From: a virus
Reading direction: 5' to 3' (one strand)
DNA: 64,000 bases
Virus record (IMG/VR): IMGVR_UViG_3300032050_000037
Span: 1-64,000 of that record
In this document: positions 3,724 to 25,320 of the stretch, one piece after another
How the letters are laid out: each line of letters opens with the position of its first letter
How positions within the stretch are numbered: the stretch's first letter is position 1
Notes under the pieces: generated by a model
Told to the model about the DNA's origin: nothing
The model's database searches: none
Seen by the model: the letters and a program-made list of their open reading frames with translations, nothing else
Made by a program: the position numbers and the translations under genes

Positions 3724-4713
3724 ATGAATATATCATTTTCAACACCTATTATTAACTTAAAAAGTAATAATGGTTATGGATATGCTGCTAAAAATATAGT
3801 AAAATCATTGACTAATTTAGGACACTTTGTTCCATTTCAAGACCCAAAATCAAAAGTTCAATTAAATTTTTCTCAGCCATCGCATTATAAGTTACATAAA
3901 AATCAATATCAAATTAGTTATACTCCATGGGAATCTACCGTTATTCCAAAAGAATGGATTTACTACATGAATGCATGTGATGAAATATGGACAACTTCTA
4001 CTTGGTGTGCAAATAATTTTGAAGATAATGGATTTAAAAATGTTAAAGTTTATCAACATGGAATAGATCCAATATGGAAGCCATACCGTAGACCAGACGA
4101 TGGAATAATTAAATTTTTGCATATAGGAGAACCTGCTCCAAGAAAAGCGGGTCAAATGGTTGTAGATGCTTTTGTTTCTTTATTTGGAAATAATCCAAAT
4201 TATTCTTTAACTATAAAAGCTGATCAAATAAATACAACAAGAATATATAACAACTATATAGATAAAAATATTATAGGATTGCCACAAAATTTATATTCTA
4301 ATATAAATTTAATTACTGATGTTTTAAATGATGAAGATTTGGTTAATTTATATAACTCTCATGACGTTTTAGTTTATCCAAGTTATGGAGAAGGTTTTGG
4401 CTTTATTCCATTACAAGCCTTAGCAACTGGCATGCCAACTATTTGTACAAGTGGTTGGGCAGAATATGAAAGTTATCTTGGGCCATTAAAGTTAAAATCT
4501 GAATTAATAGATTCCCCATGGCCTTTTCCGCATGAAGGTAAAGTTTTAGAGCCAAACTATAAACATCTACTTGAAGTTATGAGAGACGTTGCGATAAATT
4601 TTAATGCATATTCTGGTTATTATTTTGCTCAGTCAACTAAAATACATAAAGAATATAATTGGGATCAGTTGACCAATAATGCATTTGATCATATTTTTAA
4701 AAAGTTTTCTTAA
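3724..4713 (+). CDS. Glycosyltransferase, GT-B fold (GT4-like)
   Basis: FLHIGEPAPRKAG and DVLVYPSYGEGFGFIPLQALATGMPTI motifs. Confidence 0.9.
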   Translation: MNISFSTPIINLKSNNGYGYAAKNIVKSLTNLGHFVPFQDPKSKVQLNFSQPSHYKLHKNQYQISYTPWESTVIPKEWIYYMNACDEIWTTSTWCANNFEDNGFKNVKVYQHGIDPIWKPYRRPDDGIIKFLHIGEPAPRKAGQMVVDAFVSLFGNNPNYSLTIKADQINTTRIYNNYIDKNIIGLPQNLYSNINLITDVLNDEDLVNLYNSHDVLVYPSYGEGFGFIPLQALATGMPTICTSGWAEYESYLGPLKLKSELIDSPWPFPHEGKVLEPNYKHLLEVMRDVAINFNAYSGYYFAQSTKIHKEYNWDQLTNNAFDHIFKKFS

Positions 4714-4800
4714 AGTCTTCCCTCTATAAATAACATTTGATACACTTATATCTCATTTAAATTTAATAAACCGTCAGGCGGAGAAAAGGTCGTATAATAA

Positions 4801-12279: not shown

Positions 12280-14562
12280 ATGTCAACAGTAAGAATTCAG
12301 TTACGCAGAGGCACAGCAACCGAATGGACAAATGCTGATACTGCTTTAAACTCATCAGGCGGTCTTGTATTAGCTGCTGGTGAAATGGGTGTAGAGACAA
12401 ACACCAGAAAAATTAAAATTGGCGATGGTTCCACACGATGGAGCTCATTAGCATATGTAGCAGCAGACTCACCTGCAATTAGTGAGATTGCACAAGATGC
12501 AATTAATGATGCCCTTTCAATGGGTTCAGGTTTAACAAAATCTTACAACGATAATACAGATACAATTTCTATTGCAATTGATGATTCTGTTGTAGCACTT
12601 AAGTCTTATGTAGACTCTGAAGTGGGCGGATTACAAAATACAGTAACATCAGATTATGTATTAATATCAGATGTAGGAAATGCAGGAGGACCTGCAAAGT
12701 TAGATGTAGATGGAAATCTATTAGTTCCTAAATCAAGCATTATTTTAGAAGGATCATCAGCAAATGATTATGAGACAACTCTAACAGTAACAGATCCTAC
12801 AGCAGATAGAACAATTACATTGCCAGATGCTTCAGGAACTGTAGCAGTTTTAACAGGTAGCGGAGATTTAGTTATACCTGGAAATCTAACTGTAAACGGA
12901 GATACAACATCATTTAATACAGCAGAAATGCTTGTAGAAGATAATGAATTTGTATTAAATTCAAATGTTTCAACAGGAACTCCTACAGTAAGTGCTCAGA
13001 TTTCTGTAAGACGTGGATCATTAGACCCAGCATTTATTCAGTGGAATGAAACAACCGATAAATGGGTAGCAAATTATGGTGAAGCTAATGCAAAAGAAAT
13101 AGCAACACTAGACGATGTTGAATTTATGGGAGACACATCAGAAGCATATGCGGATACTCAAATAGGATATCACAATGGAATAAGTGTAAATGTTCATGGA
13201 ATAGCAGACACTTCTTTATTAGTAATACAAAATGATTTATCAACAGCAATTTCTGATCATAATTTAGATACAACAAGCGTTCATGGAATAGCAGATACAT
13301 CTGTTTTGGTTACTACATCTGACCTTTCATCAACCCTATCTTCAGCTGAAAGTTATGCAGAAACTCAAGTAACAAATCATAATTTAGATACTACAGATGT
13401 TCATGGAATATCAAATACAGCAGATTTAGCAACAAAAGGTTACGCAGATCAAGCGGTATCAGATCATAGTGGAGACACAACAAATATTCATGGTATTTCA
13501 GACACATCTGCTTTAGCAACAAAAACATATGCAGATAATGCAGTATCACAAGAAGCAATTACAACTGCATCTAATTTAGCTACAGCAGTATCAAATCATA
13601 ATAATGCTACAACTTCAGTTCATGGCATTGCGGATACATCTTTGTTAGCAACTACATCTTATGTAGATAACGCAGACTCAGATTTACAAGACTCAATAGA
13701 TCTAAAAGCACCAATTGCAAATCCAACATTTACTGGAACAGTTTCTGGCATTACAGCAACCATGGTAGGACTTGGAAACGTAGACAATACTTCTGATTTA
13801 GATAAACCAGTTTCTACCGCTACACAAACAGCATTAGATCTTAAGGCAAACCTTAATTCTCCAACATTCACAGGTACAGCAACAACAAACCATCTTGTTG
13901 TAGATGGTGACTTTACTGTAAATGGTACTAATTTTGCAGCAAGTGCAACATCTATTACAATTGAAGATAATATGGTTCAACTTGCACATCAAAATGCAGC
14001 AAATACAGTTGATCTTGGTCTTGTTGTAGCATACAACGACGGCTCAGCAAAGCATGCTGGTATTGTTCGAGATGTTTCCGAAAATAAATGGAAGCTGTTT
14101 AAAGGTGTAGCAACAGAACCTTCAACAACAGTTGATTTTACAGAAGGATCTTTAGATGATCTTAAAGTTGCAGCATTCGAAGCAACAACTGTAACACCTT
14201 CAAGCGGTGTAGTGTTCTCAGATGGAACACAAACAAAAGAGGGTGTTCCTTCAAGAACCCCGATTATTTCAAAGACCGCTGATTACACACTTTCAGCATT
14301 ATCTGAAAGAGATTCATTAATTGAAGTTGATTCTTCTTCAGCAGTAACAATTACAATTCCAACAAATTCAGCAGTAGCCTTCCCAGTCGGAACTACTCTT
14401 GATATTCTTGGAATAAATACAGGATTAATTACAATAGCAGGAGATACTGGAGTGACAGTAAATGCTACACCAGGATTAAAATTACGTACACAATGGTCAT
14501 CATGTACTCTATTTAAGCGTGGAGAAAACGCTTGGGTAGCTTACGGAGATCTAAAGGCATAG
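12280..14562 (+). CDS. Fibre protein with Mtd/hyaluronidase-type N-terminal domain
   Basis: RIQLRRGTATEW...LAAGEMGVETNTRKIKIGDG; five H-x7-HGI(A/S)(D/N)T repeats; VGLGNVDNTSDLDKPVS fibre motif. Confidence 0.75.
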   Translation: MSTVRIQLRRGTATEWTNADTALNSSGGLVLAAGEMGVETNTRKIKIGDGSTRWSSLAYVAADSPAISEIAQDAINDALSMGSGLTKSYNDNTDTISIAIDDSVVALKSYVDSEVGGLQNTVTSDYVLISDVGNAGGPAKLDVDGNLLVPKSSIILEGSSANDYETTLTVTDPTADRTITLPDASGTVAVLTGSGDLVIPGNLTVNGDTTSFNTAEMLVEDNEFVLNSNVSTGTPTVSAQISVRRGSLDPAFIQWNETTDKWVANYGEANAKEIATLDDVEFMGDTSEAYADTQIGYHNGISVNVHGIADTSLLVIQNDLSTAISDHNLDTTSVHGIADTSVLVTTSDLSSTLSSAESYAETQVTNHNLDTTDVHGISNTADLATKGYADQAVSDHSGDTTNIHGISDTSALATKTYADNAVSQEAITTASNLATAVSNHNNATTSVHGIADTSLLATTSYVDNADSDLQDSIDLKAPIANPTFTGTVSGITATMVGLGNVDNTSDLDKPVSTATQTALDLKANLNSPTFTGTATTNHLVVDGDFTVNGTNFAASATSITIEDNMVQLAHQNAANTVDLGLVVAYNDGSAKHAGIVRDVSENKWKLFKGVATEPSTTVDFTEGSLDDLKVAAFEATTVTPSSGVVFSDGTQTKEGVPSRTPIISKTADYTLSALSERDSLIEVDSSSAVTITIPTNSAVAFPVGTTLDILGINTGLITIAGDTGVTVNATPGLKLRTQWSSCTLFKRGENAWVAYGDLKA

Positions 14563-14573
14563 GAGATAAATAA

Positions 14574-15890
14574 ATGAGTAAAAGAGCTGGAAGAAAATCT
14601 CAACAGTCTAATGACTTTTTAGAGCCATATAAACCAATAATTACATCAGTTACAGATGTAGGTACAAATAGACCATTTAATGATGGGTCTGCAAGCATAG
14701 CATTTGAATTGCCAGCAGGATCTCCAGATGCGACATCTTTCACAGCAACATCTAGTCCTACTGGATTAACAATAACTGGATCTTCATCTCCATTGGTTAT
14801 GACTGGATTAGCATCAAATACTAATTATACATTTACAGTATATGCAACAAATTCTTATGGAAATTCACAAACATCAGATGCATCCTCATCTACATTAATT
14901 ACAACAGTACCATCAGCACCAGTATCTCCTTCCGTTTCTTCAACAGTTGCCGACAGGGACGATGTTTCTTGGTCAGAACCATCTAGTGGTGGTAAATCTA
15001 TTACATCATATACAGTAGTGTCTTCAGATGGACCATCTTATCAAAATATAGCAGCAACGTCATATCAAGTTTCAGAATCTGGTGGAACTACACAAAGTTA
15101 TACAATTTATGCAGTTAATGCTAATGGAACATCAGCAGGAGCATCTACAAATTCAGTAACTACATTCTTTTCTCCACCATCATTCTTTGCACCTCCAGGG
15201 TTCTTTAGCCCTCCAGGATTCTTCAGTCCTCCAGGATTCTTCAGTCCTCCAGGATTCTTCAGTCCTCCAGGATTCTTCAGTCCTCCAGGATTCTTTAGTC
15301 CTCCAGGGTTCTTTGCACCACCAAGATTTTTTGCACCTCCAGGGTTCTTTGCACCACCAAGATTTTTTGGACCTCCGTATTTTGGAGGAGGAGCCACCTG
15401 CTTACACGAAGATACACCAGTAACAGTTGTTGGTGAAAATGACTCAATTGAATATAAACCTGCAAAAGATGTTCAAGAAGGAGATTGGATATGGGCAGTG
15501 GATATAGAAGAACTAGATCCAAATGAACCAGCATATTCATCATTATTCTGGATAAGCCCTACAGCAACCTTTAATGGTTTAGTTAAAACAGAGGTTATTA
15601 ATAAATATACTTCTTTAGCTGAAGAAACAATAACCATTAATAATGATCCAAGTTCTAGATTTACAAAAGAACATCCAATGTTTATAACAAGAAATGGAGA
15701 AAATACATTCGTTTTAGCAAATAATTTGCAAATCGGTGATATTTTATCTAAGCATGATAATCAAGGCAACATATACTCAGAAACAATAAATTCTATAGAA
15801 ACTATTGTAGAAGAGTGTGCAGTGCTTACATTTAATGCTGAGCCATATGATTTAATTTATGCAAATGGCATATTAACTCATAATAAATAA
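14574..15890 (+). CDS. FN3-domain virion-type protein with FFxPPx repeats and a C-terminal Hint (intein-like) domain
   Basis: Two FN3-like units (GLASNTNYTFTVYATN; YTIYAVNANG), 12 hexapeptide repeats, then CLHEDTPV...FTKEHP...IYANGILTHNK. Confidence 0.85.
   Translation: MSKRAGRKSQQSNDFLEPYKPIITSVTDVGTNRPFNDGSASIAFELPAGSPDATSFTATSSPTGLTITGSSSPLVMTGLASNTNYTFTVYATNSYGNSQTSDASSSTLITTVPSAPVSPSVSSTVADRDDVSWSEPSSGGKSITSYTVVSSDGPSYQNIAATSYQVSESGGTTQSYTIYAVNANGTSAGASTNSVTTFFSPPSFFAPPGFFSPPGFFSPPGFFSPPGFFSPPGFFSPPGFFSPPGFFAPPRFFAPPGFFAPPRFFGPPYFGGGATCLHEDTPVTVVGENDSIEYKPAKDVQEGDWIWAVDIEELDPNEPAYSSLFWISPTATFNGLVKTEVINKYTSLAEETITINNDPSSRFTKEHPMFITRNGENTFVLANNLQIGDILSKHDNQGNIYSETINSIETIVEECAVLTFNAEPYDLIYANGILTHNK
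15165..15380 (+). repeat. Tandem 18-bp coding repeat x12, encoding FF(S/A/G)PP(G/S/R/Y)
   Basis: Read directly from the sequence; four consecutive units are the identical TTCTTCAGTCCTCCAGGA. Confidence 0.97.
15399..15890 (+). other. Hint / bacterial intein-like autoprocessing domain (163 aa)
   Basis: Block A Cys1, block B TxxH (TKEH), terminal His-Asn followed by a single Lys and the stop. Confidence 0.85.
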
Positions 15891-15892
15891 TA

Positions 15893-15921
15893 TAGACATA
15901 TAAATAAAGTTTTGCTATAAT
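15893..15921 (+). promoter_or_regulatory. Promoter of the oxygenase cluster
   Basis: TAGACA, 17-nt spacer, TATAAT, with an extended TG. Confidence 0.7.
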
Positions 15922-15954
15922 TATTTTTTAAATACTAGCAGAAAGATATTTATT

Positions 15955-16572
15955 TTGGAAAAATTAGAAGTAGGATATGGCATATGGCTATACCGCAACG
16001 TATTTCCAGACAATCTTAATTTAATTACAAGAATAGAAAATGCTATTGATAATAGTAATGGAATTTATTCTTGGAAAGAAGCAATGGTTGGATGGAAACA
16101 AAAAATTCCAGAGTATAGAAATTGTTTAGATTTTAAAGTTTCTAAACCAAATAGTACATCAATAACTAAGAATAAAAGTTCAGTAGAAGTACAATCAATT
16201 TGGCAAGACTCCTACAATGCACAAAAAGAATGTCTAGATGATTATTGTAAAATGTATAGAATAAAATTAGATTATTGGGAATCTTTTAACTTTGTTAAGT
16301 ATGAAGAGGGCCATCATTTTGAGGAGCACTCAGATCATGGAGATGCCTATGTTTGTACTGTATCTGGAGTAGGATATCTAAATGATGATTATGAAGGTGG
16401 AGAATTATTTTTTCCAAAAATTAATATATTTATTAAACCACAAAAGGGAGATCTATACTTATTTCCATCTTCATTTATTTATTCTCATAAATCAATGCCA
16501 ATAAAGTCAGGAACTAAATACTCAATAGTTACAATGTTTGATTATAACGATAAGCACCATAAAGGACAATAA
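15955..16572 (+). CDS. 2OG-Fe(II) oxygenase (prolyl 4-hydroxylase-like)
   Basis: HSD, YLNDDYEGGEL, H...GTKY. Confidence 0.9.
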   Translation: MEKLEVGYGIWLYRNVFPDNLNLITRIENAIDNSNGIYSWKEAMVGWKQKIPEYRNCLDFKVSKPNSTSITKNKSSVEVQSIWQDSYNAQKECLDDYCKMYRIKLDYWESFNFVKYEEGHHFEEHSDHGDAYVCTVSGVGYLNDDYEGGELFFPKINIFIKPQKGDLYLFPSSFIYSHKSMPIKSGTKYSIVTMFDYNDKHHKGQ

Positions 16573-17267
16573 TGTTAAATAATGCTGAATACCTAGCCCC
16601 AGGAATTATAGTTTATAGAAATGTATTCCCAGAATCAATGAATTTAATTCAAAGATTAGAATCAGAACTTTCAAAAGAAAATAATCCTTATAAATGGAAA
16701 ACTGCAAAAACTGGGTATAATTTAGAAGATAAAAGATATAGAGATTGTGCTGATTTTAAAATTAAAAGTAACCCACAAGGTTATTTAATGTTAGGCGGAG
16801 AAAGCGTTACGCCAGAAAATAAAAAAGAAACAGAAATAGCTTTAGAAAAAGTTTGGCAAGACTCTTATAGCGCACAAATAGAACCAGTAGAAGATTATAG
16901 AAAAATATTTGGACTTGCACCATTAAATTATTGGGAATCTTTTAATTTTGTTAAGTATGGAGAGGACCAGCATTTTCAAGTACATTCAGATCACGGATAT
17001 TCTTATATTTGTGTTTTATCTTCTGTTGGATATATTAATGACGATTACGAGGGTGGAGAATTATTTTTTGATAAGTTAAATTTAAAAATTAAACCAAAAG
17101 CTGGGGATCTTTACTTATTTCCTTCATCTTATATTTACTCACACGCAGCTATGCCAGTTACAAAAGGGGTTAAATACTCTATAGTTACAATGCTAGATTA
17201 TTTAGAGGCACCACACACCCCAGAGTACAGAGAAATAGAAAAAAGATATACAGAAAATTATTTATAA
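16572..17267 (+). CDS. 2OG-Fe(II) oxygenase; close paralogue of 15955..16572
   Basis: Shares YWESFNFVKY, HSDHG, GDLYLFPSS and KYSIVTM with its neighbour. Confidence 0.9.
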   Translation: MLNNAEYLAPGIIVYRNVFPESMNLIQRLESELSKENNPYKWKTAKTGYNLEDKRYRDCADFKIKSNPQGYLMLGGESVTPENKKETEIALEKVWQDSYSAQIEPVEDYRKIFGLAPLNYWESFNFVKYGEDQHFQVHSDHGYSYICVLSSVGYINDDYEGGELFFDKLNLKIKPKAGDLYLFPSSYIYSHAAMPVTKGVKYSIVTMLDYLEAPHTPEYREIEKRYTENYL

Positions 17268-17968
17268 TGTATAAGATTAAGGCTTATAAAAATATTAATT
17301 CTGCAGATATAAAACAAATTAATATTAAAAGAGACTGGATGGACAATACTGTAGATGGACACGCATACAGATGTTTTCCAGTAACATTAGCAAATGGATT
17401 AGGATGGGGTTTATCTTTTCCTAAAGATATATCTTTTATTTGGGACGGAATTTCAGACACCTCTGGAAATCATGTAAAAATATTAGAAGGAGAAGAGTAT
17501 TGTTATACAGAAAGAGCAAATGCTACAATTAGTTTCAAAACAGGTATAATATTTGAAACAGATAAAGACGTAAGCTTACTACAAATGCCTGTCCCAAATA
17601 TGTTTATAGATGGAGCACAAGCATTTACAACAATAATGAGTACATCTTTTTTTAAAGGAGAATTTCCCTGTGCTCTAAGAATAACTAAACCGTTTACAAA
17701 AATTACAATTAAAGCTAATCAGCCGTTTATATCAATAGTACCAATATCTTTAACTAATTTACAAAATTCAATAATAGAAATTGATGATCCTAAGAATATG
17801 AAAAATAACATATCTTTAGATGAAAAAGAACACTTAGATGTTGTTAAAGAAAAAACAAAAAATGGAATATGGACCAATTTCTATAGAGATGCTGTTAATT
17901 ATAAAGGACAAAAAATAGGAGAGCATGAAGTTAAAGCAATTAGACTTTATGTTAACAATAATGAATAA
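17267..17968 (+). CDS. DUF6065-like protein
   Basis: RDWMD...HAYRCFPVTLANGLGW signature. Confidence 0.7.
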   Translation: MYKIKAYKNINSADIKQINIKRDWMDNTVDGHAYRCFPVTLANGLGWGLSFPKDISFIWDGISDTSGNHVKILEGEEYCYTERANATISFKTGIIFETDKDVSLLQMPVPNMFIDGAQAFTTIMSTSFFKGEFPCALRITKPFTKITIKANQPFISIVPISLTNLQNSIIEIDDPKNMKNNISLDEKEHLDVVKEKTKNGIWTNFYRDAVNYKGQKIGEHEVKAIRLYVNNNE

Positions 17969-18680
17969 AATAATATTTCATTCATCTAGACCTTATAATA
18001 AAAATACTGAAGAATATTTACCCGTGCCTTCAAAAACAGAAATTCCAAACTGGTTTTCTAAAGCTAGTAAATATTGGAAAAACATGGATGGTTCATATAT
18101 TGTAGATCATCTTGGTGAAAGAGGACTCGGTTTTAAATCATGCCCAGCACTTTTAGATTCATTTTCTATTGGTTATCTTTTAAAAACTCCATGTGATTTA
18201 GCATTTTATGAAAAAGATGGAGATATACATGTAGAAACCCCCAAAGGATTTGAAGAGTTTTGTGCAAGAAGAGAAGAGATGCCAGAGTTTGTAGTTCCAC
18301 ATGGATATAGAAAAACACATTTTCATTGGTGGCCAAATTGGTCAATGGAGACCCCAGAAGGATATAGCTTATTAGTTATAAATCCATTAAATAGATTTGA
18401 TTTACCATTTTTAACAACTAATGGTATTATAGATAGTGATATGTACACAATTTCAGGACTTATTCCATTTTTCTTAAAAGATAATTTTGTAGGATTAATT
18501 CCTAAAGGAACTCCATATGCACAAGTAATTCCTTTTAAAAGAGAAGACTGGAAAATGGAACCTATTTTTCATGAAAAAAGAACTATGATAAAAAAACATG
18601 TTTTTACTGCAAGAAAATTTAGAGTAAAAGGCGGAGGAATATACAAAAAAGATATTTGGAAACCAAAGAAATATGAATAA
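17961..18680 (+). CDS. DUF6065-related protein (possible dUTPase-like beta-fold)
   Basis: IPNWF...FKSCPALLD...TPEGYSLL..PLNR...IPKGTPYAQVIPFKREDW. Confidence 0.55.
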   Translation: MNKIIFHSSRPYNKNTEEYLPVPSKTEIPNWFSKASKYWKNMDGSYIVDHLGERGLGFKSCPALLDSFSIGYLLKTPCDLAFYEKDGDIHVETPKGFEEFCARREEMPEFVVPHGYRKTHFHWWPNWSMETPEGYSLLVINPLNRFDLPFLTTNGIIDSDMYTISGLIPFFLKDNFVGLIPKGTPYAQVIPFKREDWKMEPIFHEKRTMIKKHVFTARKFRVKGGGIYKKDIWKPKKYE

Positions 18681-18691
18681 AGGAGACTGTT

Positions 18692-19408
18692 ATGTTTGAA
18701 AATGCAAACGAAAAAGATATTATACAAAATTTTGATGCCGTAAATGAAAACAAAGATATTAGAACTGCTAGAAAATCAATAACCCCTTCTGGATACTTTG
18801 GTTCTTCTTCTAATATGATTCAAGAAATAGAAAATTTTTTAACTGAGGAAGAACAAGAATTTTTATTAAATTTTGCAAAAAATAATAAAATATGGGACGT
18901 AACAGAATCACATTATAATGAAAATGGAACTATTATATATGACCATAGGCCTTGGGAAAATAGAGTCGCAACTCTTAATACATTAACAAAAGCAAACCCA
19001 GAAGTAGTTTTAATGTTAAGAGAAATTATAGAAAGATTGAAACCAGTAATTGAATCTTTTTATAATGTAGAAGCTACACCTACACACCCAGCAATTGTTA
19101 GATGGCCTAAAGGTACATATCAATTCCCACATGCAGATAAAGAGTTACACGAGGGCCCAGACGCTGGAAAAGAAAATGATTTTCCATGGTATGATCTAGG
19201 AACTATTTTTTATTTAAATGATGACTACGAAGGCGGAGAACTTCATTTCCCTAAACAAAATATATCTTTTAAACCAAAAGCAAGAGCAGCATATTTTTTC
19301 CCTGGAGATTTAAATTATATACATGGAGTTAATGTAGTAAAGGAAGGATGTAGATATACATCGCCCTGGTTTTGGACTATTACAAAATTAAAGGATAAAA
19401 ATGTATAA
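18692..19408 (+). CDS. 2OG-Fe(II) oxygenase
   Basis: HAD, YLNDDYEGGEL, HGV...RY. Confidence 0.9.
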   Translation: MFENANEKDIIQNFDAVNENKDIRTARKSITPSGYFGSSSNMIQEIENFLTEEEQEFLLNFAKNNKIWDVTESHYNENGTIIYDHRPWENRVATLNTLTKANPEVVLMLREIIERLKPVIESFYNVEATPTHPAIVRWPKGTYQFPHADKELHEGPDAGKENDFPWYDLGTIFYLNDDYEGGELHFPKQNISFKPKARAAYFFPGDLNYIHGVNVVKEGCRYTSPWFWTITKLKDKNV

Positions 19409-20114
19409 TATAACAAAATATAAAGATGATGTATTTACAATAGATGATTTTTTAACTGAAGATGAGTGTAAAAGAATCATAGATTATTTGGAAATGTCAG
19501 TACAAAATAATTATATTAAATGGAACCAGATCTCATTTTATGAATCTTATGCTATGGGATTTTGGGAATATGATAATAATTTAATTCCTTTTGGATTTAA
19601 TCCAAAATATTTTCATGAGCTTAAAGAAAAAATAAAAAATGCTGGTGAAATCTGCTTTAATAATAAATTAAGCGAAATTAGTTATCATGCACAAAAATGG
19701 ACAGAGGGCGCATTTGCAGGATTCCATTCAGACAATTCAGATGAACATGGAAACCCAACGGCTTTTCAAAGAAGTAAATATGCAATTTTTTTATATCTTA
19801 ATGATAATTTTGATGGTGGTAATTTAAACTTTGAACACTATCCAATTAACATAAAACCAAAAGTAGGAATGTTAGCGGTTTTTAAAGGCGGATATAAAAA
19901 TGAACATGAAGTAACAACAGTTAAAAATGGTGAAAGGTATACTATTGGATCATTTTGGGATGACGCAGACGCAGTCTACACAGATGAAGAAAAAGCTAAA
20001 TGGGAAGTTGAATTAAAAGAAACAAGAGCTGGTCAAGAAGTTATGTATAAAAAATGGAAATCTGATAAAGAAAATGGAATAGTTCCAACTTATAAAAGTA
20101 AGTATGAAAACTAA
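19401..20114 (+). CDS. 2OG-Fe(II) oxygenase
   Basis: HSD, YLNDNFDGGNL, HEV...ERY. Confidence 0.9.
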   Translation: MYNITKYKDDVFTIDDFLTEDECKRIIDYLEMSVQNNYIKWNQISFYESYAMGFWEYDNNLIPFGFNPKYFHELKEKIKNAGEICFNNKLSEISYHAQKWTEGAFAGFHSDNSDEHGNPTAFQRSKYAIFLYLNDNFDGGNLNFEHYPINIKPKVGMLAVFKGGYKNEHEVTTVKNGERYTIGSFWDDADAVYTDEEKAKWEVELKETRAGQEVMYKKWKSDKENGIVPTYKSKYEN

Positions 20115-20125
20115 CAGGAGAAAAC

Positions 20126-20944
20126 ATGAGCAATAATATGGAAAGAATAGTATTATATCCAAAGGTAGAGGTATATAGAAATTTATTAAATAACGTAAAT
20201 GATTTATATGAAACTATGAAGGAATCAGAAAAAACATCAGACGGAAAATATTATTTAAGAAAATGGGATAAATGGTCGGTTTTTGGAACTTATACTCAAC
20301 AAAAACACGAGGAGTCAGAGCCAAGAGAATACGGTCAAATGTACGATAGAGAAAAACTATTATCTGATGAAGTTTATAAAGCGTATAACATTGCAATAGA
20401 TGCATATATAAAAAATAATAATGTTGTCATGCCAGAAGGAGCTCAATTAATGTCTTCTTCATTCTCTAAATATAAAAAAGACTTAGATGTTTTAGAAAAT
20501 AATTTAGCCATGCAGTACCATACAGATTTTAAAATTTTTGAATCAGAGTGGCCAGGGTCAAAATTTTTTCTAACATGTACAACTTACATTAATGATGATT
20601 ATGAGGGTGGAGATATTGAATTTTTTATAAATGGAGAATTTGTTTCTCACAAACCAAAAGCAGGAGACATTTTAGTTTTTCCTTCTATCCCTCCATATTT
20701 TCATGGAGTTAAAACAATTAAAAGAGGAGAAAAGTTTTTTGTAAGAAATTTTATCACATATCTTTCTGAGGGTTCTAGATCTTGGTTAGAGAATCAAAAA
20801 ATATACGGACCAAGAGAATGGCTTCAGATGGAAGAAGATAGAATTAAAAGAGAGATGCCAGAAGCAATGCTTTATTTTGAAAATGGAAAACAGATACAAT
20901 ATTCAGAGAAAATAAAAAATAATGAAAATAACAACATTAAATGA
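20126..20944 (+). CDS. 2OG-Fe(II) oxygenase
   Basis: HTD, YINDDYEGGDI, HGV...K. Confidence 0.9.
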   Translation: MSNNMERIVLYPKVEVYRNLLNNVNDLYETMKESEKTSDGKYYLRKWDKWSVFGTYTQQKHEESEPREYGQMYDREKLLSDEVYKAYNIAIDAYIKNNNVVMPEGAQLMSSSFSKYKKDLDVLENNLAMQYHTDFKIFESEWPGSKFFLTCTTYINDDYEGGDIEFFINGEFVSHKPKAGDILVFPSIPPYFHGVKTIKRGEKFFVRNFITYLSEGSRSWLENQKIYGPREWLQMEEDRIKREMPEAMLYFENGKQIQYSEKIKNNENNNIK

Positions 20945-21524
20945 TAATATTATTTACTATCAGAGTTTAATAAATGATATAGATAATTTTATTAATTTAA
21001 TAAATAATATAGAAGAAGAATATGTTTATCTTTTTTCTAAATGGGAAAAATGGTATGCCAGCAATGCAGATGTTTTATATGGAGAATCTAGAGAATCTTC
21101 TTTTAGTAGTATATTAAATAATTGTAAAAAGGAATCAGATTCTTTTTTTATTGCAAAAACTATCAAAGAATTAGTAGATTTTTGCATTAAAGATTATTGT
21201 GAAAAAACAAAACAGGTCCCAGGATATTTGCCAGATCATTTTACAATTAAAAAATATAATACCGATGCATATATGGGTCCACATGTAGATACCGAAGATT
21301 TATTTGATAAAAAACAACCATCTATATCTATGGTTTTTTATTTAAATGATGATTACGAGGGGGGAGAAATAGAGTTCCCTAATCAGCAAATCAAAATAAA
21401 GCCAGAAGCTGGAAGTTTAATTATATTCCCGTCCTATCAACCATATATACATGACCCAAAACCAGTTTTATCTGGAACCAAATACATGATACCTCTTTTT
21501 TGGTTTAAAGAAAAGTTTTGGTAG
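20922..21524 (+). CDS. 2OG-Fe(II) oxygenase
   Basis: HVD, YLNDDYEGGEI, H...GTKY. Confidence 0.9.
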   Translation: MKITTLNDNIIYYQSLINDIDNFINLINNIEEEYVYLFSKWEKWYASNADVLYGESRESSFSSILNNCKKESDSFFIAKTIKELVDFCIKDYCEKTKQVPGYLPDHFTIKKYNTDAYMGPHVDTEDLFDKKQPSISMVFYLNDDYEGGEIEFPNQQIKIKPEAGSLIIFPSYQPYIHDPKPVLSGTKYMIPLFWFKEKFW

Positions 21525-21556
21525 ATTTATTTTAATAATTAAGGTATAATAAAATA

Positions 21557-23335
21557 ATGTCTTATAAAAATGTAATTGTAAAAGACTCACCAATAGGATA
21601 CTGGCCGCTGTCTGAAAATACTGGCACAACTATAATAGATGAATCTGGATGCAATAATAATGGAACAGCGTCAAGTTTAAGCGTAGTAAAAATACCACTA
21701 GTTTCAGACGGATCATCAGTAGCTAGGCTGATGTCAGATTCAGTATATTTAATATTTAATACATTAAATAGCTATTCTCAAGAATCACTAACGGTTCCTG
21801 GATTTGCAAACAAATATTCATCTGACAATGATTTTAGTTTAGAGTGTTGGGTATATCCACAAATATCTGACCTATCAGAAATTGCAATCCTAGCAGATAT
21901 AGATAATGAAATAGGAATTTTTTGGGATCAGGGAAATATAGTATTTAAATTAAATAGTGAAACGTTGTCATATACAATCCCAGACTTTAATCAAGCATTG
22001 CACATAGTTGCCACATATTCTGTAGACAGAATGTCTATTTATTTAAATGGAAGTTTGGCTGTATTCAAAACATTAGAAAGTTTTTCTTTTTCAAATACAT
22101 CTCTTGAAATACAATCTGGACCAATAGATGGAGACGATAATTATTTTATTTTAGATAATGTAGCAATATATAGATATGCTTTAAACGAAAATCAAATTTT
22201 AAACCATTATTCGTATACTGGATATACCATACCATATCAAGTTGTAATACCAGACGACGGAGAACTTTTTGAATTTGTAGATAGTCAGATGAATAAAACT
22301 TTTACATATTCATACCCATACAATAAATCATGGGAAGGATTTTTAAATGAAGATGTGGTGTTAAATAGATCAGAAAATTATATAGAAATATTAAAAACAA
22401 ATACTGTTGAAAATAAAGAATTTATAATAGAAGATATAATTTCTATACCATCAGCAATACCAATGGACTCATCAAAAATAGAATGGGCTGGACACAATGG
22501 CATTTCTGTAGAAACAAGTATAGATGGAATTACTTATGAACAATGTGTTAATGGACAATCAATACCTCAATTTTTAACAAGTAGCTTTAGCGATTCAAAA
22601 GTTATTTATTTAAAAATTACTATGTCGTCTACCGACACGTCGAAGTATTGTCCAAAACTATATAGCCTAACAATATCATTCTATAATCAGCAAATAATGT
22701 ATTCTAGAAATGGAAATAGCTATTTATCAAAAGTTGAAGATTGCGACGCATACCTAGGGACAGAAAAACACCCAATATCTTTTAGAAATAATAAAAATGG
22801 AATCTTGGTTCCACTAGATTCAGGATTTAAGATAAATACAGATAAGCTAGTAAAATCAATAGAATTTTTCTATACGCCATACGATAACTTTCTTTCTGGT
22901 CCATCAACTATACCAGGATCAATAATTAATGTCGCTTTATTTGGAGACGGGGAAGCAGCAAGTTATTCATGGGATAATGGATTTACAATATCCAAAACCA
23001 ATATAGAATCATTATATGTGAACACAGTAGACTATACAAGCGAAACCAATATGTCATATATATTTGCCCCAGGAAATCTACACCATGTAGTAATTTCATT
23101 TTCTGACTCAGTAACTGGAGAATTAATTTTTAATATAAATCAAGGGGATGGACCTAAAGCCCTATACCAAAATCTATCCCTATATACAGAAACCTTAGAC
23201 TATAATAAAATTAAAAACCACTATAGTCTATATTTAGGAAAGTCTACCTATACAGCAGAAACTTCTGCCACCAACCTGTCAGAAAATTCAGTAAATTTAT
23301 ATAATAATGACTGGCTTGTGATACAAAACTCATAA
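21557..23335 (+). CDS. LamG/concanavalin-A-like domain structural protein
   Basis: DSPIGYWPLSE, FSLECW, HIVATY...IYLNG and LDNVAIY LamG pattern. Confidence 0.75.
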   Translation: MSYKNVIVKDSPIGYWPLSENTGTTIIDESGCNNNGTASSLSVVKIPLVSDGSSVARLMSDSVYLIFNTLNSYSQESLTVPGFANKYSSDNDFSLECWVYPQISDLSEIAILADIDNEIGIFWDQGNIVFKLNSETLSYTIPDFNQALHIVATYSVDRMSIYLNGSLAVFKTLESFSFSNTSLEIQSGPIDGDDNYFILDNVAIYRYALNENQILNHYSYTGYTIPYQVVIPDDGELFEFVDSQMNKTFTYSYPYNKSWEGFLNEDVVLNRSENYIEILKTNTVENKEFIIEDIISIPSAIPMDSSKIEWAGHNGISVETSIDGITYEQCVNGQSIPQFLTSSFSDSKVIYLKITMSSTDTSKYCPKLYSLTISFYNQQIMYSRNGNSYLSKVEDCDAYLGTEKHPISFRNNKNGILVPLDSGFKINTDKLVKSIEFFYTPYDNFLSGPSTIPGSIINVALFGDGEAASYSWDNGFTISKTNIESLYVNTVDYTSETNMSYIFAPGNLHHVVISFSDSVTGELIFNINQGDGPKALYQNLSLYTETLDYNKIKNHYSLYLGKSTYTAETSATNLSENSVNLYNNDWLVIQNS

Positions 23336-23398: not shown

Positions 23399-23734
23399 AT
23401 GGATATTAAAAGAGTAAATCAAGAACTAATAGAAGAGACTATTCTAGGAATTTATGTCTGGGAAATGCCAGATGGTAGATGGATAGGCGATGATGATGGA
23501 AATTTTCTTTCTATTTCATCTAAAAAGGGAAACCGTTCTAGAATCGATGCACTTGCTAGAGAAGTAAGATCATATGGAATATATGAAGGAAAACCTAAAT
23601 TTTTATCTGGTAGACGTAAAATAGATGATGAAGAATTTGAATATCAAAAACAAAGACTTGAATGGGGACTTACACCAGATCCACTAGATATTGGTGTTTA
23701 TAAGGATTCATTGAAAAATGGAGGAAAACCGTAA
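23399..23734 (+). CDS. Conserved-looking hypothetical protein preceding the portal
   Basis: ORF track; own promoter TGGACT-N17-TAGAAT; TAATG overlap with the portal gene. Confidence 0.65.
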   Translation: MDIKRVNQELIEETILGIYVWEMPDGRWIGDDDGNFLSISSKKGNRSRIDALAREVRSYGIYEGKPKFLSGRRKIDDEEFEYQKQRLEWGLTPDPLDIGVYKDSLKNGGKP

Positions 23735-25320
23735 TGGAATTTATTGATGAAGAAAATAATCTATCTCAAGAAGTAAGTATATCAAATTCAGCAGATTGGT
23801 TTAAGTTTAATAATAAAGAAGTTACAATAGACAATGATCCATTTAATATTGATGAAGACTCATTAAAAAAAGTACACGGACTTAGTCCAGCTTTTAGACG
23901 TAAAATGTCTAGAGAATTTTCAAAACGTTTTATCGGACAAGAAAAAACTGGAACTCAACAAAATTTATTGCAACAGGCTGTAACTGGCTATGCCATGTTC
24001 GACCTAGTACAACCAGTTTATAACTTAGAATATTTATCTAAAATTTATGAAATATCTCCATATAACTATGCTGCAATTAATGCAAAGGTTGCAAATATTG
24101 TTGGATTAGGATATACATTTGTTGAAACTAAAAAGGCAAATGATGCATTAGATAATATTGAAGATCCAAAACAATTAGAAAGAGCTCGTCGTAAATTAAA
24201 TAAACTAAGACAAGATCTAGATAATTGGCTAGAGGAAACAAACGAAGAAGAAACTTTCACAGAAACTTTGATAAAAGCATATACTGATCTTGAAGCCACT
24301 GGAAATGGATATATTGAAATTGGTAGAACAAGCGCTGGTAATATTGGATATATAGGACACATTCCTGCAAAAACTATGCGTGTTCGTAGACTTCGTGATG
24401 GCTTTATTCAATTGCTTTACGGTAAGGCAGTATTCTTTAGAAACTTTGGAGATCAGGAAACACCTAATCCAATCGCAGGGCAAGAAGATCGTCCAAATGA
24501 AATTATTCATTTAAAGAAATACACACCGATGAATAACTATTATGGCATTCCAGATATTATTGCATCACAAAATGCTATGGCAGGAAATGAGTTTGCTGGT
24601 AAATACAATTTAGATTATTTTGAAAACAAAGCAGTACCTCGTTATATTATTACTGTAAAGGGTGCCAAGTTATCACCAGAATCAGAACGTAAGCTTCTTG
24701 AATTTTTCCAGGTAGGACTAAAAGGTAAAAATCACAGATCATTATATGTGCCACTACCAGCAGATACAGCAGATTCTAAAGTTGAATTTAAAATGGAACC
24801 AATTGAAGCAAATGCTCAAGAATCTTCATTTAATGTATATCGTAAATCAAATAGAGATGAAATATTATTAGCCCATAGAGTTCCAATTAATAAAATTGGA
24901 GTTCCAGAAGGAGTAAGTTTAGCTTCTGCTAGAGATGCTGATAAAATGTTTAAGGAGCAGGTATGTCGTCCTGCACAAGATATTTTAGAGAAAAAATTAA
25001 ATAGAATTATTGCAGAAAAAACAGATGCTGTAATTCTTAAATTCAATGAATTAACTCTAACTGATGAGGATACTCAGTCTAAAATTGATGAAAGATATTT
25101 GCGTATGCAGGTTATTACCCCTAATGAGGTTAGAATTAGAAAAGGTATGATTCCAATGGACGGCGGAGATGAGGTTGTTGTTTTAAAACCACAGCAACAA
25201 TCAGAAATTAGAGCCCAAGCTGGAAATTCTAGAAATAGGACTCAAGAGAGATCTGCAAATTCCCCAGATATTTCAGGGGAGGCTAGAAATCCAAAAGGTG
25301 AAGGTCGTACCACCGCTTAA
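23734..25320 (+). CDS. Portal protein
   Basis: DLEATGNGYIEI, EIIHLK..YYGIPD, YFENKAVP and ITPNEVR motifs of HK97/PBSX-type portals; gene position. Confidence 0.9.
   Translation: MEFIDEENNLSQEVSISNSADWFKFNNKEVTIDNDPFNIDEDSLKKVHGLSPAFRRKMSREFSKRFIGQEKTGTQQNLLQQAVTGYAMFDLVQPVYNLEYLSKIYEISPYNYAAINAKVANIVGLGYTFVETKKANDALDNIEDPKQLERARRKLNKLRQDLDNWLEETNEEETFTETLIKAYTDLEATGNGYIEIGRTSAGNIGYIGHIPAKTMRVRRLRDGFIQLLYGKAVFFRNFGDQETPNPIAGQEDRPNEIIHLKKYTPMNNYYGIPDIIASQNAMAGNEFAGKYNLDYFENKAVPRYIITVKGAKLSPESERKLLEFFQVGLKGKNHRSLYVPLPADTADSKVEFKMEPIEANAQESSFNVYRKSNRDEILLAHRVPINKIGVPEGVSLASARDADKMFKEQVCRPAQDILEKKLNRIIAEKTDAVILKFNELTLTDEDTQSKIDERYLRMQVITPNEVRIRKGMIPMDGGDEVVVLKPQQQSEIRAQAGNSRNRTQERSANSPDISGEARNPKGEGRTTA

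What the first reader, a model, noticed from the sequence alone, without database searches (positions are those of the whole stretch)
14574..21524. Candidate phage post-translational tailoring system: Pro-Pro repeat + Hint protein followed by a hydroxylase battery
Seen: one ORF has the order FN3-FN3-(FFxPPx)12-GGGAT-Hint. The next eight genes are six intact 2OG-Fe(II) oxygenases of the prolyl-4-hydroxylase type and two DUF6065-like proteins. Established: P4H-type enzymes hydroxylate Pro in Pro-Gly and Ser-Pro-Pro contexts (collagen, extensins); Hint domains autocleave through a thioester; repetitive precursor plus adjacent tailoring enzymes is the layout of RiPP clusters. Inference: the array (24 Pro, 23 Phe, 1 Tyr plus flanking Phe) is the oxygenase substrate. 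Hint cleavage would leave it at an activated C-terminus, giving either a modified virion appendage or released or cyclised peptides. I know of no described phage system like this, but novelty needs a literature check.
Basis: partly seen in the sequence, partly recalled or inferred. Interest (0 to 1): 0.9.

Follow-up and report, generated by a model that had tools for sequence, protein, structure and literature searches.

The report
Phage Pro/Phe-repeat fibre protein with hydroxylases
An uncultured lake phage encodes, in its tail-fibre gene block, a protein ending in a Phe-Phe-x-Pro-Pro-x polymer capped by a self-cleaving-type domain, followed by six collagen-type proline-hydroxylase-like enzymes; proline-rich tail and enzyme set recur together in related and unrelated phages, so the tail is a testable candidate substrate for phage oxygenases of unknown role, though no chemistry has been shown.

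Summary
ORF 14574-15890 is two FN3 domains, 12 FFxPPx units (24 Pro, 25 Phe), a 5-residue linker and a Hint domain. It is followed by six PF13640 oxygenases with intact HxD...H...K/R sites and two DUF6065-type proteins.

- Of 143 informative repeat ORFs from lake-phage contigs, 125 have oxygenase/DUF6065 genes within 3 kb downstream. Most of the rest are second copies in loci that carry the cluster further on.
- 123 of 128 follow a tail-fibre gene.
- All 77 non-redundant complete clusters have 4-9 oxygenases.
- The repeat is the constant partner. FN3 and Hint are dispensable: one variant carries a Peptidase_S74 autocleaving chaperone instead, and others end right after the repeat.
- Marine T4-like phage contigs place unrelated proteins ending in polyproline runs, one with a probable Hint, beside DUF6065 + PF13640 pairs.
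- DUF6065 has a dUTPase-like fold and occurs fused to PF13640, sulfotransferase and Skp1-type GlcNAc-transferase domains.

This fits a modified virion fibre-module protein, not a RiPP. No hydroxylation is shown. Seven more oxygenases lie elsewhere in the genome, and enzyme number does not track proline content. The scan found this system before in at least 10 other genomes. I found no paper describing it.

The parts
12280..14562 (+). Tail-fibre protein (760 aa, Mtd_N N-terminus). It lies directly upstream of the repeat protein. It is context, and a possible assembly partner.
   Evidence: Pfam Mtd_N 1.8e-12. A homologous fibre gene lies within 300 nt upstream of 123 of 128 informative repeat ORFs.
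14574..15890 (+). Repeat-Hint protein, 438 aa: basic N-terminus, two FN3 domains, (FFxPPx)12, linker, Hint.
14631..15164 (+). Tandem FN3 domains (residues ~20-197).
   Evidence: Pfam fn3 1e-7. AF2 pLDDT >90. Foldseek matches FN3 tandems at E 1e-11.
15165..15383 (+). Array of 12 x 18 bp encoding FFxPPx units plus a final Phe. This is the proposed hydroxylation substrate.
   Evidence: No fold is predicted (pLDDT <50). The repeat is conserved at the amino-acid level in all homologues, with 7-36 units.
15399..15887 (+). Hint (intein-like) domain, Cys276 to Lys438. It ends His-Asn-Lys-stop, so canonical splicing is impossible. N-terminal autocleavage is inferred.
   Evidence: Pfam PF14890 2e-4, below its cut-off. 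Cys1, the block-A Thr and the terminal Asn are invariant in 24 homologues. PDB intein hits at E 0.03. pLDDT about 90.
15893..15921 (+). Promoter-like site (11 of 12 matches, with an extended -10 TG) in the 64-nt gap between the repeat gene and the first oxygenase.
   Evidence: The region as a whole is not enriched in such matches (73 found against 85.6 expected), so this is weak.
15955..16572 (+). 2OG-Fe(II) oxygenase 1, P4H-type.
   Evidence: PF13640 1.2e-11. HxD at residue 125, His178, Lys ten residues later.
16572..17267 (+). 2OG-Fe(II) oxygenase 2, P4H-type.
   Evidence: PF13640 1.2e-12. Best solved relative is Bacillus anthracis prolyl 4-hydroxylase at 7e-8. Triad intact.
17267..17968 (+). 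DUF6065 protein 1, with a dUTPase-like fold. Probable partner of the oxygenases.
   Evidence: PF19541 3e-28. AF2 pLDDT 91.8. dUTPases at Z 8-10.5. Fusions DUF6065-PF13640 exist elsewhere.
17925..18680 (+). DUF6065-like protein 2, a distant paralogue.
   Evidence: phrog_7084 1e-30. 15-19% identity to protein 1 in alignment A1. 44% identity to the DUF part of the GlcNAc-transferase fusion P0174.
18692..19408 (+). 2OG-Fe(II) oxygenase 3. Of the six paralogues it is the closest to the oxygenase half of DUF6065-oxygenase fusion proteins.
   Evidence: PF13640 2.1e-6.. Profile hits to B. anthracis P4H and prolyl 3-hydroxylase 1.
19401..20114 (+). 2OG-Fe(II) oxygenase 4.
   Evidence: PF13640 6.4e-11. 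Triad intact.
20126..20944 (+). 2OG-Fe(II) oxygenase 5.
   Evidence: PF13640 7e-7. Triad intact.
20922..21524 (+). 2OG-Fe(II) oxygenase 6.
   Evidence: PF13640 6.4e-13. Best solved relative is PBCV-1 prolyl 4-hydroxylase 5c5t at 3e-4.
21557..23335 (+). Laminin_G_3 (concanavalin-like) 592-aa protein. It closes the cluster on the portal side and is probably a virion protein.
   Evidence: PF13385 8.7e-13. Its position is conserved in relatives.

Best explanation
The gene encodes a virion fibre-module protein. Its working end is a C-terminal tail built of aromatic-aromatic-(x)-Pro-Pro units, with no predicted fold.

Proposed sequence of events:
1. During late infection, some or all of the six adjacent P4H-type 2OG/Fe(II) oxygenases hydroxylate prolines of this tail in the host cytoplasm. 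They work with DUF6065 partner proteins, which have a dUTPase-like fold. (Inferred.)
2. In relatives, further enzymes such as a sulfotransferase, an AspH-type hydroxylase, a radical-SAM enzyme and glycosyltransferases may add to the new hydroxyls. (Inferred.)
3. The C-terminal Hint domain makes a thioester at Cys276 and removes itself, so the mature protein ends a few residues after the last repeat. (Inferred from motifs.)

Hint-less variants and the Peptidase_S74 variant would reach the same mature C-terminus by other routes.

Shown here: the domain architecture, intact catalytic motifs, conserved linkage of Pro-rich tail with oxygenases and DUF6065 in related and unrelated phages, and the tail-fibre gene context.

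Not shown: any hydroxylation, any cleavage, or presence in the virion.
For: (1) Linkage within the clade.
- In 80 loci found through the protein, the order fibre, repeat protein, oxygenase/DUF6065 cluster, LamG protein, portal is kept down to 34% identity. Each oxygenase paralogue has its own orthologue.
- In a scan for the repeat pattern alone, 125 of 143 informative distinct repeat ORFs have oxygenase/DUF6065 genes within 3 kb downstream. Most exceptions are second, upstream copies in loci that hold the cluster further on.
- In the reverse direction, among 72 loci anchored on DUF6065, 54 have the repeat, 16 are too short, and 2 have a period-4 variant, (F/Y/H)-F-P-P.

(2) The repeat is the invariant part.
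- Of 157 distinct repeat ORFs, FN3 is present in 107 and Hint in 93. 32 have neither, including proteins of 102-150 aa.

(3) Two unrelated self-cleaving modules occupy the same place directly after the repeat.
- These are Hint and, in L172, Peptidase_S74 (6.5e-10).
- Other variants stop right after the repeat, with the first oxygenase 69 nt later.

(4) Independent lineages.
- Low-GC marine contigs with T4-like tail-fibre genes carry DUF6065 and PF13640 as a split pair or as one fused protein, beside non-homologous proteins ending in runs of 9-22 prolines.
- One of them (L275) has fibre repeats, 13 prolines and a probable Hint, overlapped by DUF6065 and followed by a radical-SAM enzyme and oxygenases.
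- 6 of 6 informative loci show this.
- The two Hint domains show no pairwise similarity, so the module was not simply transferred.

(5) Enzymology.
- All six enzymes keep the Fe and 2OG ligands.
- The nearest solved relatives are Bacillus anthracis P4H, PBCV-1 P4H and prolyl 3-hydroxylase 1.
- Pro-Pro-Gly is the classical collagen P4H substrate (established knowledge).

(6) DUF6065 is tied to hydroxylation chemistry by gene fusion with PF13640 (four clusters), Stf0 sulfotransferase, and PF11397, the Skp1-hydroxyproline GlcNAc-transferase family.
- In the fusions the DUF half resembles gene 17267-17968 and the oxygenase half resembles 18692-19408. This matches the gene order here.

(7) In the whole 113-kb genome this is the only ORF with such repeats, and there is no collagen-like Gly-x-y run anywhere.
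Against: - No chemical evidence exists.
- Seven further PF13640-like genes lie elsewhere in this genome.
- Cyanomyoviruses such as S-PM2 place related oxygenases after tail-fibre genes with no Pro-rich repeat and no DUF6065. The enzyme family therefore has other or broader targets.
- The number of oxygenases does not follow the proline content of the tail (Spearman -0.05, p 0.70, 77 clusters).
- Six to nine conserved paralogues are more than a 6-residue repeat obviously needs.
- For the one studied viral P4H (PBCV-1), hydroxyproline was not detected in virions and its role is unknown (PMC7019647).
- Linkage within the main clade is largely inherited synteny.
- The sixth residue of the unit is often not Gly in relatives, so collagen-type X-Pro-Gly recognition cannot be general.
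- The block-B His of Hint is replaced by Gln in most homologues, so cleavage competence is uncertain there.
Confidence: 0.5

Rival explanations
1. The oxygenases and DUF6065 proteins act on something other than the repeat protein: host proteins (translation factors, ribosomal proteins), small molecules or nucleic acids. They sit beside the repeat gene only because tail-fibre modules are where phages collect accessory genes.
For: - Thirteen PF13640-like ORFs are scattered over the genome.
- Related enzymes in cyanomyoviruses lie after fibre genes with no Pro-rich partner.
- A source names one DUF6065-oxygenase fusion as a ribosomal Rps23 prolyl dihydroxylase-like protein.
- The literature treats these genes as auxiliary metabolic genes of unknown use (PMC9301287).
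- A promoter-like site separates the cluster from the repeat gene.
- Enzyme number does not correlate with proline content.
Against: The pairing recurs with unrelated carrier proteins, unrelated Pro-rich sequences and a different phage type. The repeat persists beside the cluster when FN3 and Hint are lost. Chance co-location does not predict either.
Confidence: 0.25
2. The enzymes modify virion fibre proteins in general (the 760-aa fibre, the LamG protein, or their glycans). The Pro/Phe tail is a structural or docking element of the fibre, for example a PPII spacer, a sticky hydrophobic tip or an assembly handle. It is not the substrate.
For: - A fibre gene lies within 300 nt upstream of 123 of 128 repeat ORFs, a tighter link than the link to the oxygenases.
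- Upstream second copies of repeat proteins are followed by more fibre genes, not by enzymes.
- An S74 trimerisation chaperone follows the repeat in L172.
- AspH-type and other hydroxylase types in relatives suggest non-proline targets too.
Against: The fibre proteins are not Pro-rich, and the nearest solved enzymes are prolyl hydroxylases. In the marine lineages the polyproline-tailed protein, not a long fibre, is the immediate neighbour of the DUF6065-oxygenase pair.
Confidence: 0.15
3. A RiPP-like system: the repeat is a precursor from which modified small peptides, or a cyclised product, are released through the Hint thioester.
For: A repetitive precursor next to tailoring enzymes, and a Hint domain able to form a C-terminal thioester.
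Against: - Hint cleavage would release a ~275-aa FN3-FN3-repeat protein, not peptides.
- No leader peptidase, cyclase or exporter lies in the cluster.
- Many variants have no Hint at all.
- The setting is a tail-fibre block ending at the portal gene.
Confidence: 0.03
4. DUF6065, a trimeric-type dUTPase fold, and the Hint or S74 caps form a folding and assembly system for a trimeric Pro/Phe fibre. The oxygenases are unrelated passengers.
For: The dUTPase-like fold. S74 is a trimerisation chaperone of fibres.
Against: DUF6065 is fused to oxygenase, sulfotransferase and glycosyltransferase domains, not to fibre domains. Units of period 4 and period 6 both occur, which argues against one fixed fibre geometry.
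Confidence: 0.07

Closest known systems
Chlorovirus PBCV-1 prolyl 4-hydroxylase (PDB 5c5t) and that virus's Pro-rich repeats
   Same: A virus-encoded small P4H-type enzyme together with virus-encoded proline-rich repeat proteins. 5c5t is the best solved match of oxygenase 6. The enzyme hydroxylates Pro-containing peptides in vitro (PMC7019647).
   Different: PBCV-1 is a eukaryotic virus with a single enzyme. It has no DUF6065, no Hint and no gene linkage with a dedicated repeat protein. Hydroxyproline was not found in PBCV-1 virions. Here there are six to nine paralogues in an operon-like block inside a phage tail-fibre module.
Collagen-type prolyl 4-hydroxylation, including Bacillus anthracis P4H (3itq, 5hv0)
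   Same: The same enzyme family is the nearest solved relative of oxygenases 2 and 3. Eight of the 12 units contain Pro-Pro-Gly, the classical P4H substrate (established knowledge).
   Different: The repeat is not collagen. Gly comes at best every sixth residue and is replaced by Asn, Leu, Gln, Arg and others in relatives, and period-4 variants exist. No triple helix is predicted.
Plant and algal hydroxyproline-rich glycoproteins (extensins) and the Skp1 Pro-hydroxylation/GlcNAc pathway
   Same: Contiguous prolines are hydroxylated and the hydroxyl group is then glycosylated. A DUF6065 protein is fused to the Skp1-type GlcNAc-transferase family PF11397. The phage has a glycosyltransferase cluster containing a P4H-like gene.
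   Different: There is no evidence of glycosylation of this protein. The motif is aromatic-rich, not Ser-Pro(n). The setting is prokaryotic cytoplasm.
Hedgehog C-terminal Hint domains and A-type bacterial intein-like (BIL) domains
   Same: A C-terminal or terminal-like Hint with Cys1 and a conserved His-Asn end. It sits in a variable, non-conserved protein and is expected to autocleave rather than splice (PMC7765530).
   Different: There is no sterol-recognition region, the C-extein is a single Lys, and the host protein is a phage FN3 fibre-module protein. Membership in the BIL-A family was not tested with its own profile.
C-terminal intramolecular chaperone domains of phage tail spikes and fibres (Peptidase_S74)
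   Same: A self-removing C-terminal module on a fibre protein. One variant of the repeat protein (L172) carries exactly this domain directly after the repeat.
   Different: The window's protein uses an unrelated fold (Hint) in that position.
Multi-copy 2OG-Fe(II) oxygenase 'auxiliary metabolic genes' of cyanomyoviruses
   Same: The same Pfam/PHROG family (phrog_61), 26-36% identity, several copies per genome, often just after tail-fibre genes as in S-PM2.
   Different: S-PM2 has no DUF6065 and no Pro-rich tail protein beside them. No substrate is known.

Membership tests
2OG-Fe(II) oxygenase, P4H-type (PF13640) | Profile match above the curated cut-off | tested here: met
   All six score 29-49.9 bits against a cut-off of 27.
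2OG-Fe(II) oxygenase, P4H-type (PF13640) | HxD...H iron triad and a basic residue binding the 2OG C5 carboxylate | tested here: met
   All six have HxD, the distal His, and Lys or Arg ten residues after it.
2OG-Fe(II) oxygenase, P4H-type (PF13640) | Peptidyl-proline hydroxylase activity | not testable with these tools
   Only remote similarity to solved prolyl 4- and 3-hydroxylases, E 7e-8 to 3e-4. Lysyl hydroxylases and PiuC-type enzymes also appear in those lists.
Hint / intein-like autoprocessing domain | Profile match above the curated cut-off | tested here: not met
   PF14890 scores 21.6 bits against 35.8, E 2e-4. PDB intein hits at E 0.03.
Hint / intein-like autoprocessing domain | N-terminal nucleophile (Cys1), block-B Thr-x-x-His, C-terminal His-Asn | tested here: met
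   All are present in the window's protein. Cys1 and the terminal Asn are invariant in 24 homologues, but the block-B His is Gln in most of them.
Hint / intein-like autoprocessing domain | A +1 nucleophile (Cys/Ser/Thr) for canonical splicing | tested here: not met
   The +1 residue is Lys, followed by the stop. It is therefore not a canonical intein; only cleavage is expected.
Hint / intein-like autoprocessing domain | Hint fold | tested here: inconclusive
   The domain is modelled at pLDDT about 90, but the fold search of the whole model was filled by FN3 matches. The domain was not searched alone.
DUF6065 (PF19541) | Profile match above the cut-off | tested here: met
   17267-17968 scores 99.3 bits against 26.6. 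17925-18680 has no Pfam hit; it matches only phrog_7084 at 1e-30 and a joint profile.
dUTPase | Trimeric dUTPase fold together with the conserved catalytic motifs | tested here: inconclusive
   Fold similarity at Z 8-10.5 and Foldseek E 1e-4. No Pfam dUTPase hit, 8-16% identity, and the motifs were not examined. I do not file it as a dUTPase.
Collagen triple helix | Gly at every third residue | tested here: not met
   Gly comes at most every sixth residue and is variable in relatives. A period-4 variant exists. No Gly-x-y runs occur in the genome.
RiPP biosynthetic cluster | Short precursor with leader and core, plus a dedicated peptidase or cyclase releasing a small product | tested here: not met
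   The precursor has 438 aa with folded FN3 domains. None of the eight downstream genes is a peptidase or cyclase.
Fibronectin type III | Profile match and fold | tested here: met
   PF00041 scores 32.5 bits against 25. Tandem FN3 structures match at E 1e-11.

The most novel reading that the evidence does not exclude
A widespread, undescribed class of phage virion-maturation systems. Tail-fibre-module proteins carry C-terminal proline-rich tails (aromatic-Pro repeats in lake phages, polyproline in marine T4-like phages). Batteries of P4H-type oxygenases hydroxylate these tails together with a new dUTPase-fold partner (DUF6065). The tails may be further sulfated or glycosylated, and are trimmed by interchangeable self-cleaving caps (Hint or S74). 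This would give the first natural substrate for the abundant phage '2OG-Fe(II) oxygenase / P4H auxiliary metabolic genes', and would show them to be virion-decorating rather than metabolic.
Probability: 0.4. Interest if true: 0.85.

Novelty: new variant of a known kind. Interest (0 to 1): 0.75.

Why it matters
Phage 2OG-Fe(II)/prolyl-hydroxylase genes are among the most frequently counted 'auxiliary metabolic genes' in marine and freshwater viromes, and their use is openly called cryptic (PMC9301287).

This locus offers a defined, clonable candidate substrate next to its candidate enzymes. The phage is near-identical (97% or more of sampled words) in lake and freshwater metagenomes from about ten studies.

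If the tail is hydroxylated:
- these genes would be reclassified as virion-maturation genes;
- a function would be attached to DUF6065, which has more than 3,000 cluster representatives;
- it would be a bacterial-virus counterpart of collagen and extensin chemistry;
- it would show a new use of Hint domains as removable caps on structural proteins.

Tried and rejected
- GenBank phages (50,697 records): no match to the region's DNA, to the repeat protein, to either DUF6065 query or to the marine polyproline protein. No cultured relative or virion proteome could be used.
- Collagen-like triple helix: rejected, because Gly is not at every third residue and a period-4 variant exists.
- AF2 gave no structure for the repeat.
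- RiPP reading: rejected (see the rival explanations).
- Correlation between oxygenase number and proline content, reported by earlier notes on other genomes: not reproduced in my 77 non-redundant complete clusters (rho -0.05).
- The apparent 'cluster without oxygenases' (L108) was an artefact of a second repeat ORF lying after the cluster.
- The profile of both DUF6065 subfamilies (alignment A1) was too diverse for the search for related loci. Fusion protein P0221 had no match in viral contigs.
- The DUF6065-anchored scan returned only relatives of 54% identity or more, so it did not reach beyond the clade.
- The Hint domains of the window and of L275 have no pairwise similarity. The L275 Hint call rests on sub-threshold Pfam hits.
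- Paper searches: 'DUF6065' gave 0 papers. None of the other paper searches returned a description of this system.
- RNA evidence: two metatranscriptome runs hold a few short contigs identical to parts of the repeat gene and the oxygenase 1/2 junction. Coverage is sparse and DNA carry-over cannot be excluded. The raw-read DNA run gave one read, so variation in repeat length within a population could not be examined.
The genomic context of most DUF6065 fusion proteins, and a DUF6065 + oxygenase 3 complex prediction, could not be obtained.

Full report
**What is there**

The window is the first 64 kb of a 113,072-bp IMG/VR virus record rated complete, at about 32% G+C. All genes from 10.5 to 25.3 kb lie on the + strand, with short gaps or overlaps. 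In order they are:
- fibre-like proteins;
- a 760-aa tail fibre with an Mtd_N N-terminus (12280-14562);
- the 438-aa protein of the finding (14574-15890);
- eight enzyme-like genes (15955-21524);
- a 592-aa Laminin_G_3 protein;
- a small ORF;
- the portal gene (23734-25320), 58% identical to portals of large Streptomyces siphoviruses.

**The repeat protein**

Residues ~20-197 form two FN3 domains. Pfam finds one above its cut-off, the AF2 model shows two at pLDDT above 90, and Foldseek matches FN3 tandems at E 1e-11.

Residues 198-270 (window 15165-15383) are 12 units of Phe-Phe-x-Pro-Pro-x plus a final Phe, with 24 Pro and 25 Phe. Four central 18-bp units are identical in DNA. AF2 predicts no fold for this stretch (pLDDT below 50).

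After a five-residue linker comes a Hint domain, Cys276 to Lys438. It has the block-A Cys and Asp-Thr, the block-B Thr-x-x-His, and a His-Asn end followed by one Lys and the stop. The Pfam intein model matches below its cut-off (2e-4), two archaeal inteins match at E 0.03, and pLDDT is about 90. With Lys at +1 it cannot splice canonically. Like Hedgehog and A-type bacterial intein-like domains (PMC7765530), it is expected to cleave at its N-terminus only.

**The enzymes**

All six oxygenases pass the PF13640 gathering score and keep HxD, the distal His, and a Lys or Arg ten residues later. Their nearest solved relatives are Bacillus anthracis prolyl 4-hydroxylase, PBCV-1 prolyl 4-hydroxylase and prolyl 3-hydroxylase 1. 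Lysyl hydroxylases and PiuC-type enzymes come further down the lists.

Gene 17267-17968 is DUF6065 (3e-28). Gene 17925-18680 is a distant paralogue recognised through phrog_7084. The first-stage observation is therefore confirmed, apart from a small miscount of Phe.

**Is the pairing real?**

I tested it in three directions.

(a) Starting from the protein. IMG/VR holds 222 relatives. In the best 80 loci the order fibre, repeat protein, oxygenase/DUF6065 cluster, LamG protein, portal is kept down to 34% identity. Each oxygenase paralogue finds its own orthologue, so the paralogue set is old and maintained.

(b) Starting from the repeat alone, with a degenerate DNA pattern for three units. Pooled with the other loci, I obtained 157 distinct repeat ORFs.
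- 125 of 143 informative ones have oxygenase or DUF6065 genes within 3 kb downstream on the same strand.
- 123 of 128 have a fibre gene within 300 nt upstream.
- Most of the 18 exceptions are second, upstream repeat proteins in loci that carry the cluster after a second fibre/repeat pair.

(c) Starting from DUF6065. Of 72 loci, 54 have the repeat and 16 are too short upstream. Two have an FN3 homologue with a period-4 variant of the repeat, (Phe/Tyr/His)-Phe-Pro-Pro.

All 77 non-redundant complete clusters have 4-9 oxygenases. Within the reach of these searches, the cluster never occurs without an aromatic-aromatic-(x)-Pro-Pro protein.

**What varies**

The repeat is the constant. Its carriers are not.
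- FN3 is present in 107 of the 157 ORFs and Hint in 93. 32 have neither, including proteins of only 102-150 aa.
- After the repeat one finds any of the following: a Hint domain of several subtypes, some lacking the Cys; nothing at all, with the first oxygenase starting 69 nt later; small Cys-rich knobs; fibre-type Trp/Lys repeats; or, in L172, a Peptidase_S74 intramolecular chaperone (6.5e-10) starting directly after the last unit.
- Two unrelated self-removing modules in the same position, together with forms that simply stop there, argue that the mature protein ends with the repeat. Hint would then be a removable cap rather than the point of the system.
- Units of period 4 and period 6 both occur, and the sixth position is free to be Gly, Ser, Asn, Leu, Gln or Arg. 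This rules out a collagen-type helix and points to a compositionally defined tail.

**Independent lineages**

A profile of the DUF6065 family finds 3,305 cluster representatives. Among them are fusion proteins:
- DUF6065 with PF13640, in four clusters;
- Stf0 sulfotransferase with DUF6065;
- PF11397, the Skp1-hydroxyproline GlcNAc-transferase family, with DUF6065.

In the oxygenase fusions the DUF half is closest to gene 17267-17968 and the oxygenase half to 18692-19408. This mirrors the gene order here.

Using these fusions to search metagenomes gave six informative low-GC marine or estuarine loci. One of them is itself an IMG/VR viral contig. The three examined (L275, L277, L280) carry T4-like tail-fibre genes. 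In all six, the DUF6065-oxygenase pair lies beside a non-homologous protein ending in a run of 9-22 prolines.

In L275 a 651-aa fibre-like protein carries 13 prolines followed by a probable Hint domain (sub-threshold Pfam hits). It is overlapped by a DUF6065 gene and followed by a B12-radical-SAM enzyme, two PF13640-type oxygenase genes and a second DUF6065. Its Hint shows no similarity to the window's Hint.

This recurrence, with a different phage type, a different carrier and a different Pro-rich sequence, is the strongest argument that the Pro-rich tail and the DUF6065/oxygenase set work together. Conserved synteny inside one clade could not show that.

**Further tailoring enzymes**

In 38 related loci a Sulfotransfer_2 protein and an AspH-type hydroxylase are inserted between the repeat gene and the first oxygenase. 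Outside the window, this genome has a glycosylation cluster (GT25, methyltransferase, GT32-like, GT61, nucleotidyltransferase/HAD) with a P4H-like gene in its midst.

**DUF6065**

The AF2 model is confident (pLDDT 91.8). It matches dUTPases in two independent fold searches: Foldseek at E 1e-4, and VIA at Z 8-10.5 for 14 dUTPase entries. Sequence identity is 8-16% and no dUTPase profile matches. I read it as a repurposed fold acting as a partner of the oxygenases. Its activity is unknown.

**Cautions**

- Nothing here shows hydroxylation, cleavage or presence in virions.
- The genome has 13 PF13640-like ORFs, seven of them away from this cluster.
- The closest cultured relatives of the enzymes are the multi-copy oxygenases of cyanomyoviruses. 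In S-PM2 these also follow tail-fibre genes, but without any Pro-rich protein or DUF6065.
- Oxygenase number is unrelated to proline content in my sample. This contradicts what earlier notes of this scan reported for other genomes.
- For the one studied viral P4H (PBCV-1), hydroxyproline was not found in virions (PMC7019647).
- A promoter-like site lies between the repeat gene and the cluster, but such matches are not enriched in the region.
- RNA-library contigs identical to parts of the locus exist, but they are too sparse to prove transcription.

**Verdict**

The repeat is a well-founded candidate substrate and the cluster looks like a tailoring battery. However, the object is a tail-fibre-module protein with a removable cap, not a RiPP, and Hint is optional.

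I put 0.5 on 'the adjacent P4H-type enzymes hydroxylate the Pro-rich tail of a virion protein'.

The closest known case is the PBCV-1 prolyl 4-hydroxylase with that virus's Pro-rich repeats, so I class this as a new variant of a known kind. I found no paper describing it ('DUF6065' gave 0 papers). The same system has already been noted by this scan in at least ten other genomes.

Noticed in passing
whole genome G000: 2-631(-), 1813-2460(-), 62132-63088(+) in the window; 68441-68998, 92793-93518, 93520-94341, 112543-113070(-) beyond it: Seven further PF13640-like oxygenase ORFs lie outside the cluster, making 13 in a 113-kb phage genome. The ORFs at the two record ends may be one gene if the record is circularly permuted. 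ORF 93520-94341 also has a CDGSH iron-sulfur zinc-finger match just below its cut-off.
   Followed up: partly
G000 65642-75303 (locus L271:1642-11303), beyond the window: A glycosylation cluster: GT25, methyltransferase, GT32-like (Gly_transf_sug), GT61 and nucleotidyltransferase/HAD, with a P4H-like oxygenase (68441-68998) next to a 596-aa protein without a Pfam match. It is a possible second step (O-glycosylation of hydroxylated residues).
   Followed up: partly
L018:11293-12550 and 37 other related loci: A Sulfotransfer_2 protein and an Asp/Asn beta-hydroxylase-family (PF05118) protein are inserted between the repeat-Hint gene and the first P4H-type oxygenase.
   Followed up: partly
L172:9631-10284(-): A 217-aa variant in which 11 FFxPPx units are followed directly by a Peptidase_S74 intramolecular chaperone domain instead of Hint.
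   Followed up: yes
L108:8368-9258, L142:7837-8787 and L142:3-2453: Repeat variants of period 4, (Phe/Tyr/His)-Phe-Pro-Pro, in FN3 homologues and in an 816-aa Hint-bearing protein.
   Followed up: yes
L275:1365-8755; L277:3595-6591; L280:392-3520: Marine T4-like phage contigs hold polyproline-tailed proteins beside DUF6065 + PF13640. L275 also has a B12-binding radical-SAM gene (4021-5589) inside the cluster. Conserved 260-265-aa ORFs with no family match lie between the polyproline protein and DUF6065 in L277 and L280.
   Followed up: partly
L055:2418-5045, L068:1632-4391, L077:1780-4401, L070:1298-3955, L064:1881-4442: Some relatives carry a second, larger (850-920 aa) protein with the same repeat plus Hint after an upstream fibre gene. 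The fibre/repeat pair is therefore duplicated while the enzyme cluster is single.
   Followed up: partly
window 4801-6735: A 644-aa ORF with B12-dependent (class II) ribonucleotide reductase domains, upstream of the structural block.
   Followed up: no
window 14000-22000: 17 runs from about ten studies, labelled lake or freshwater metagenomes (several labelled 'fungus metagenome'), hold 97% or more of the sampled words. The phage genotype is widespread in lakes. Many of these runs may be sources of the assembly.
   Followed up: partly
window 15893-15921: The best promoter-like match of the region (11 of 12, with an extended -10) falls in the only sizeable intergenic gap, between the repeat gene and oxygenase 1.
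   Followed up: no
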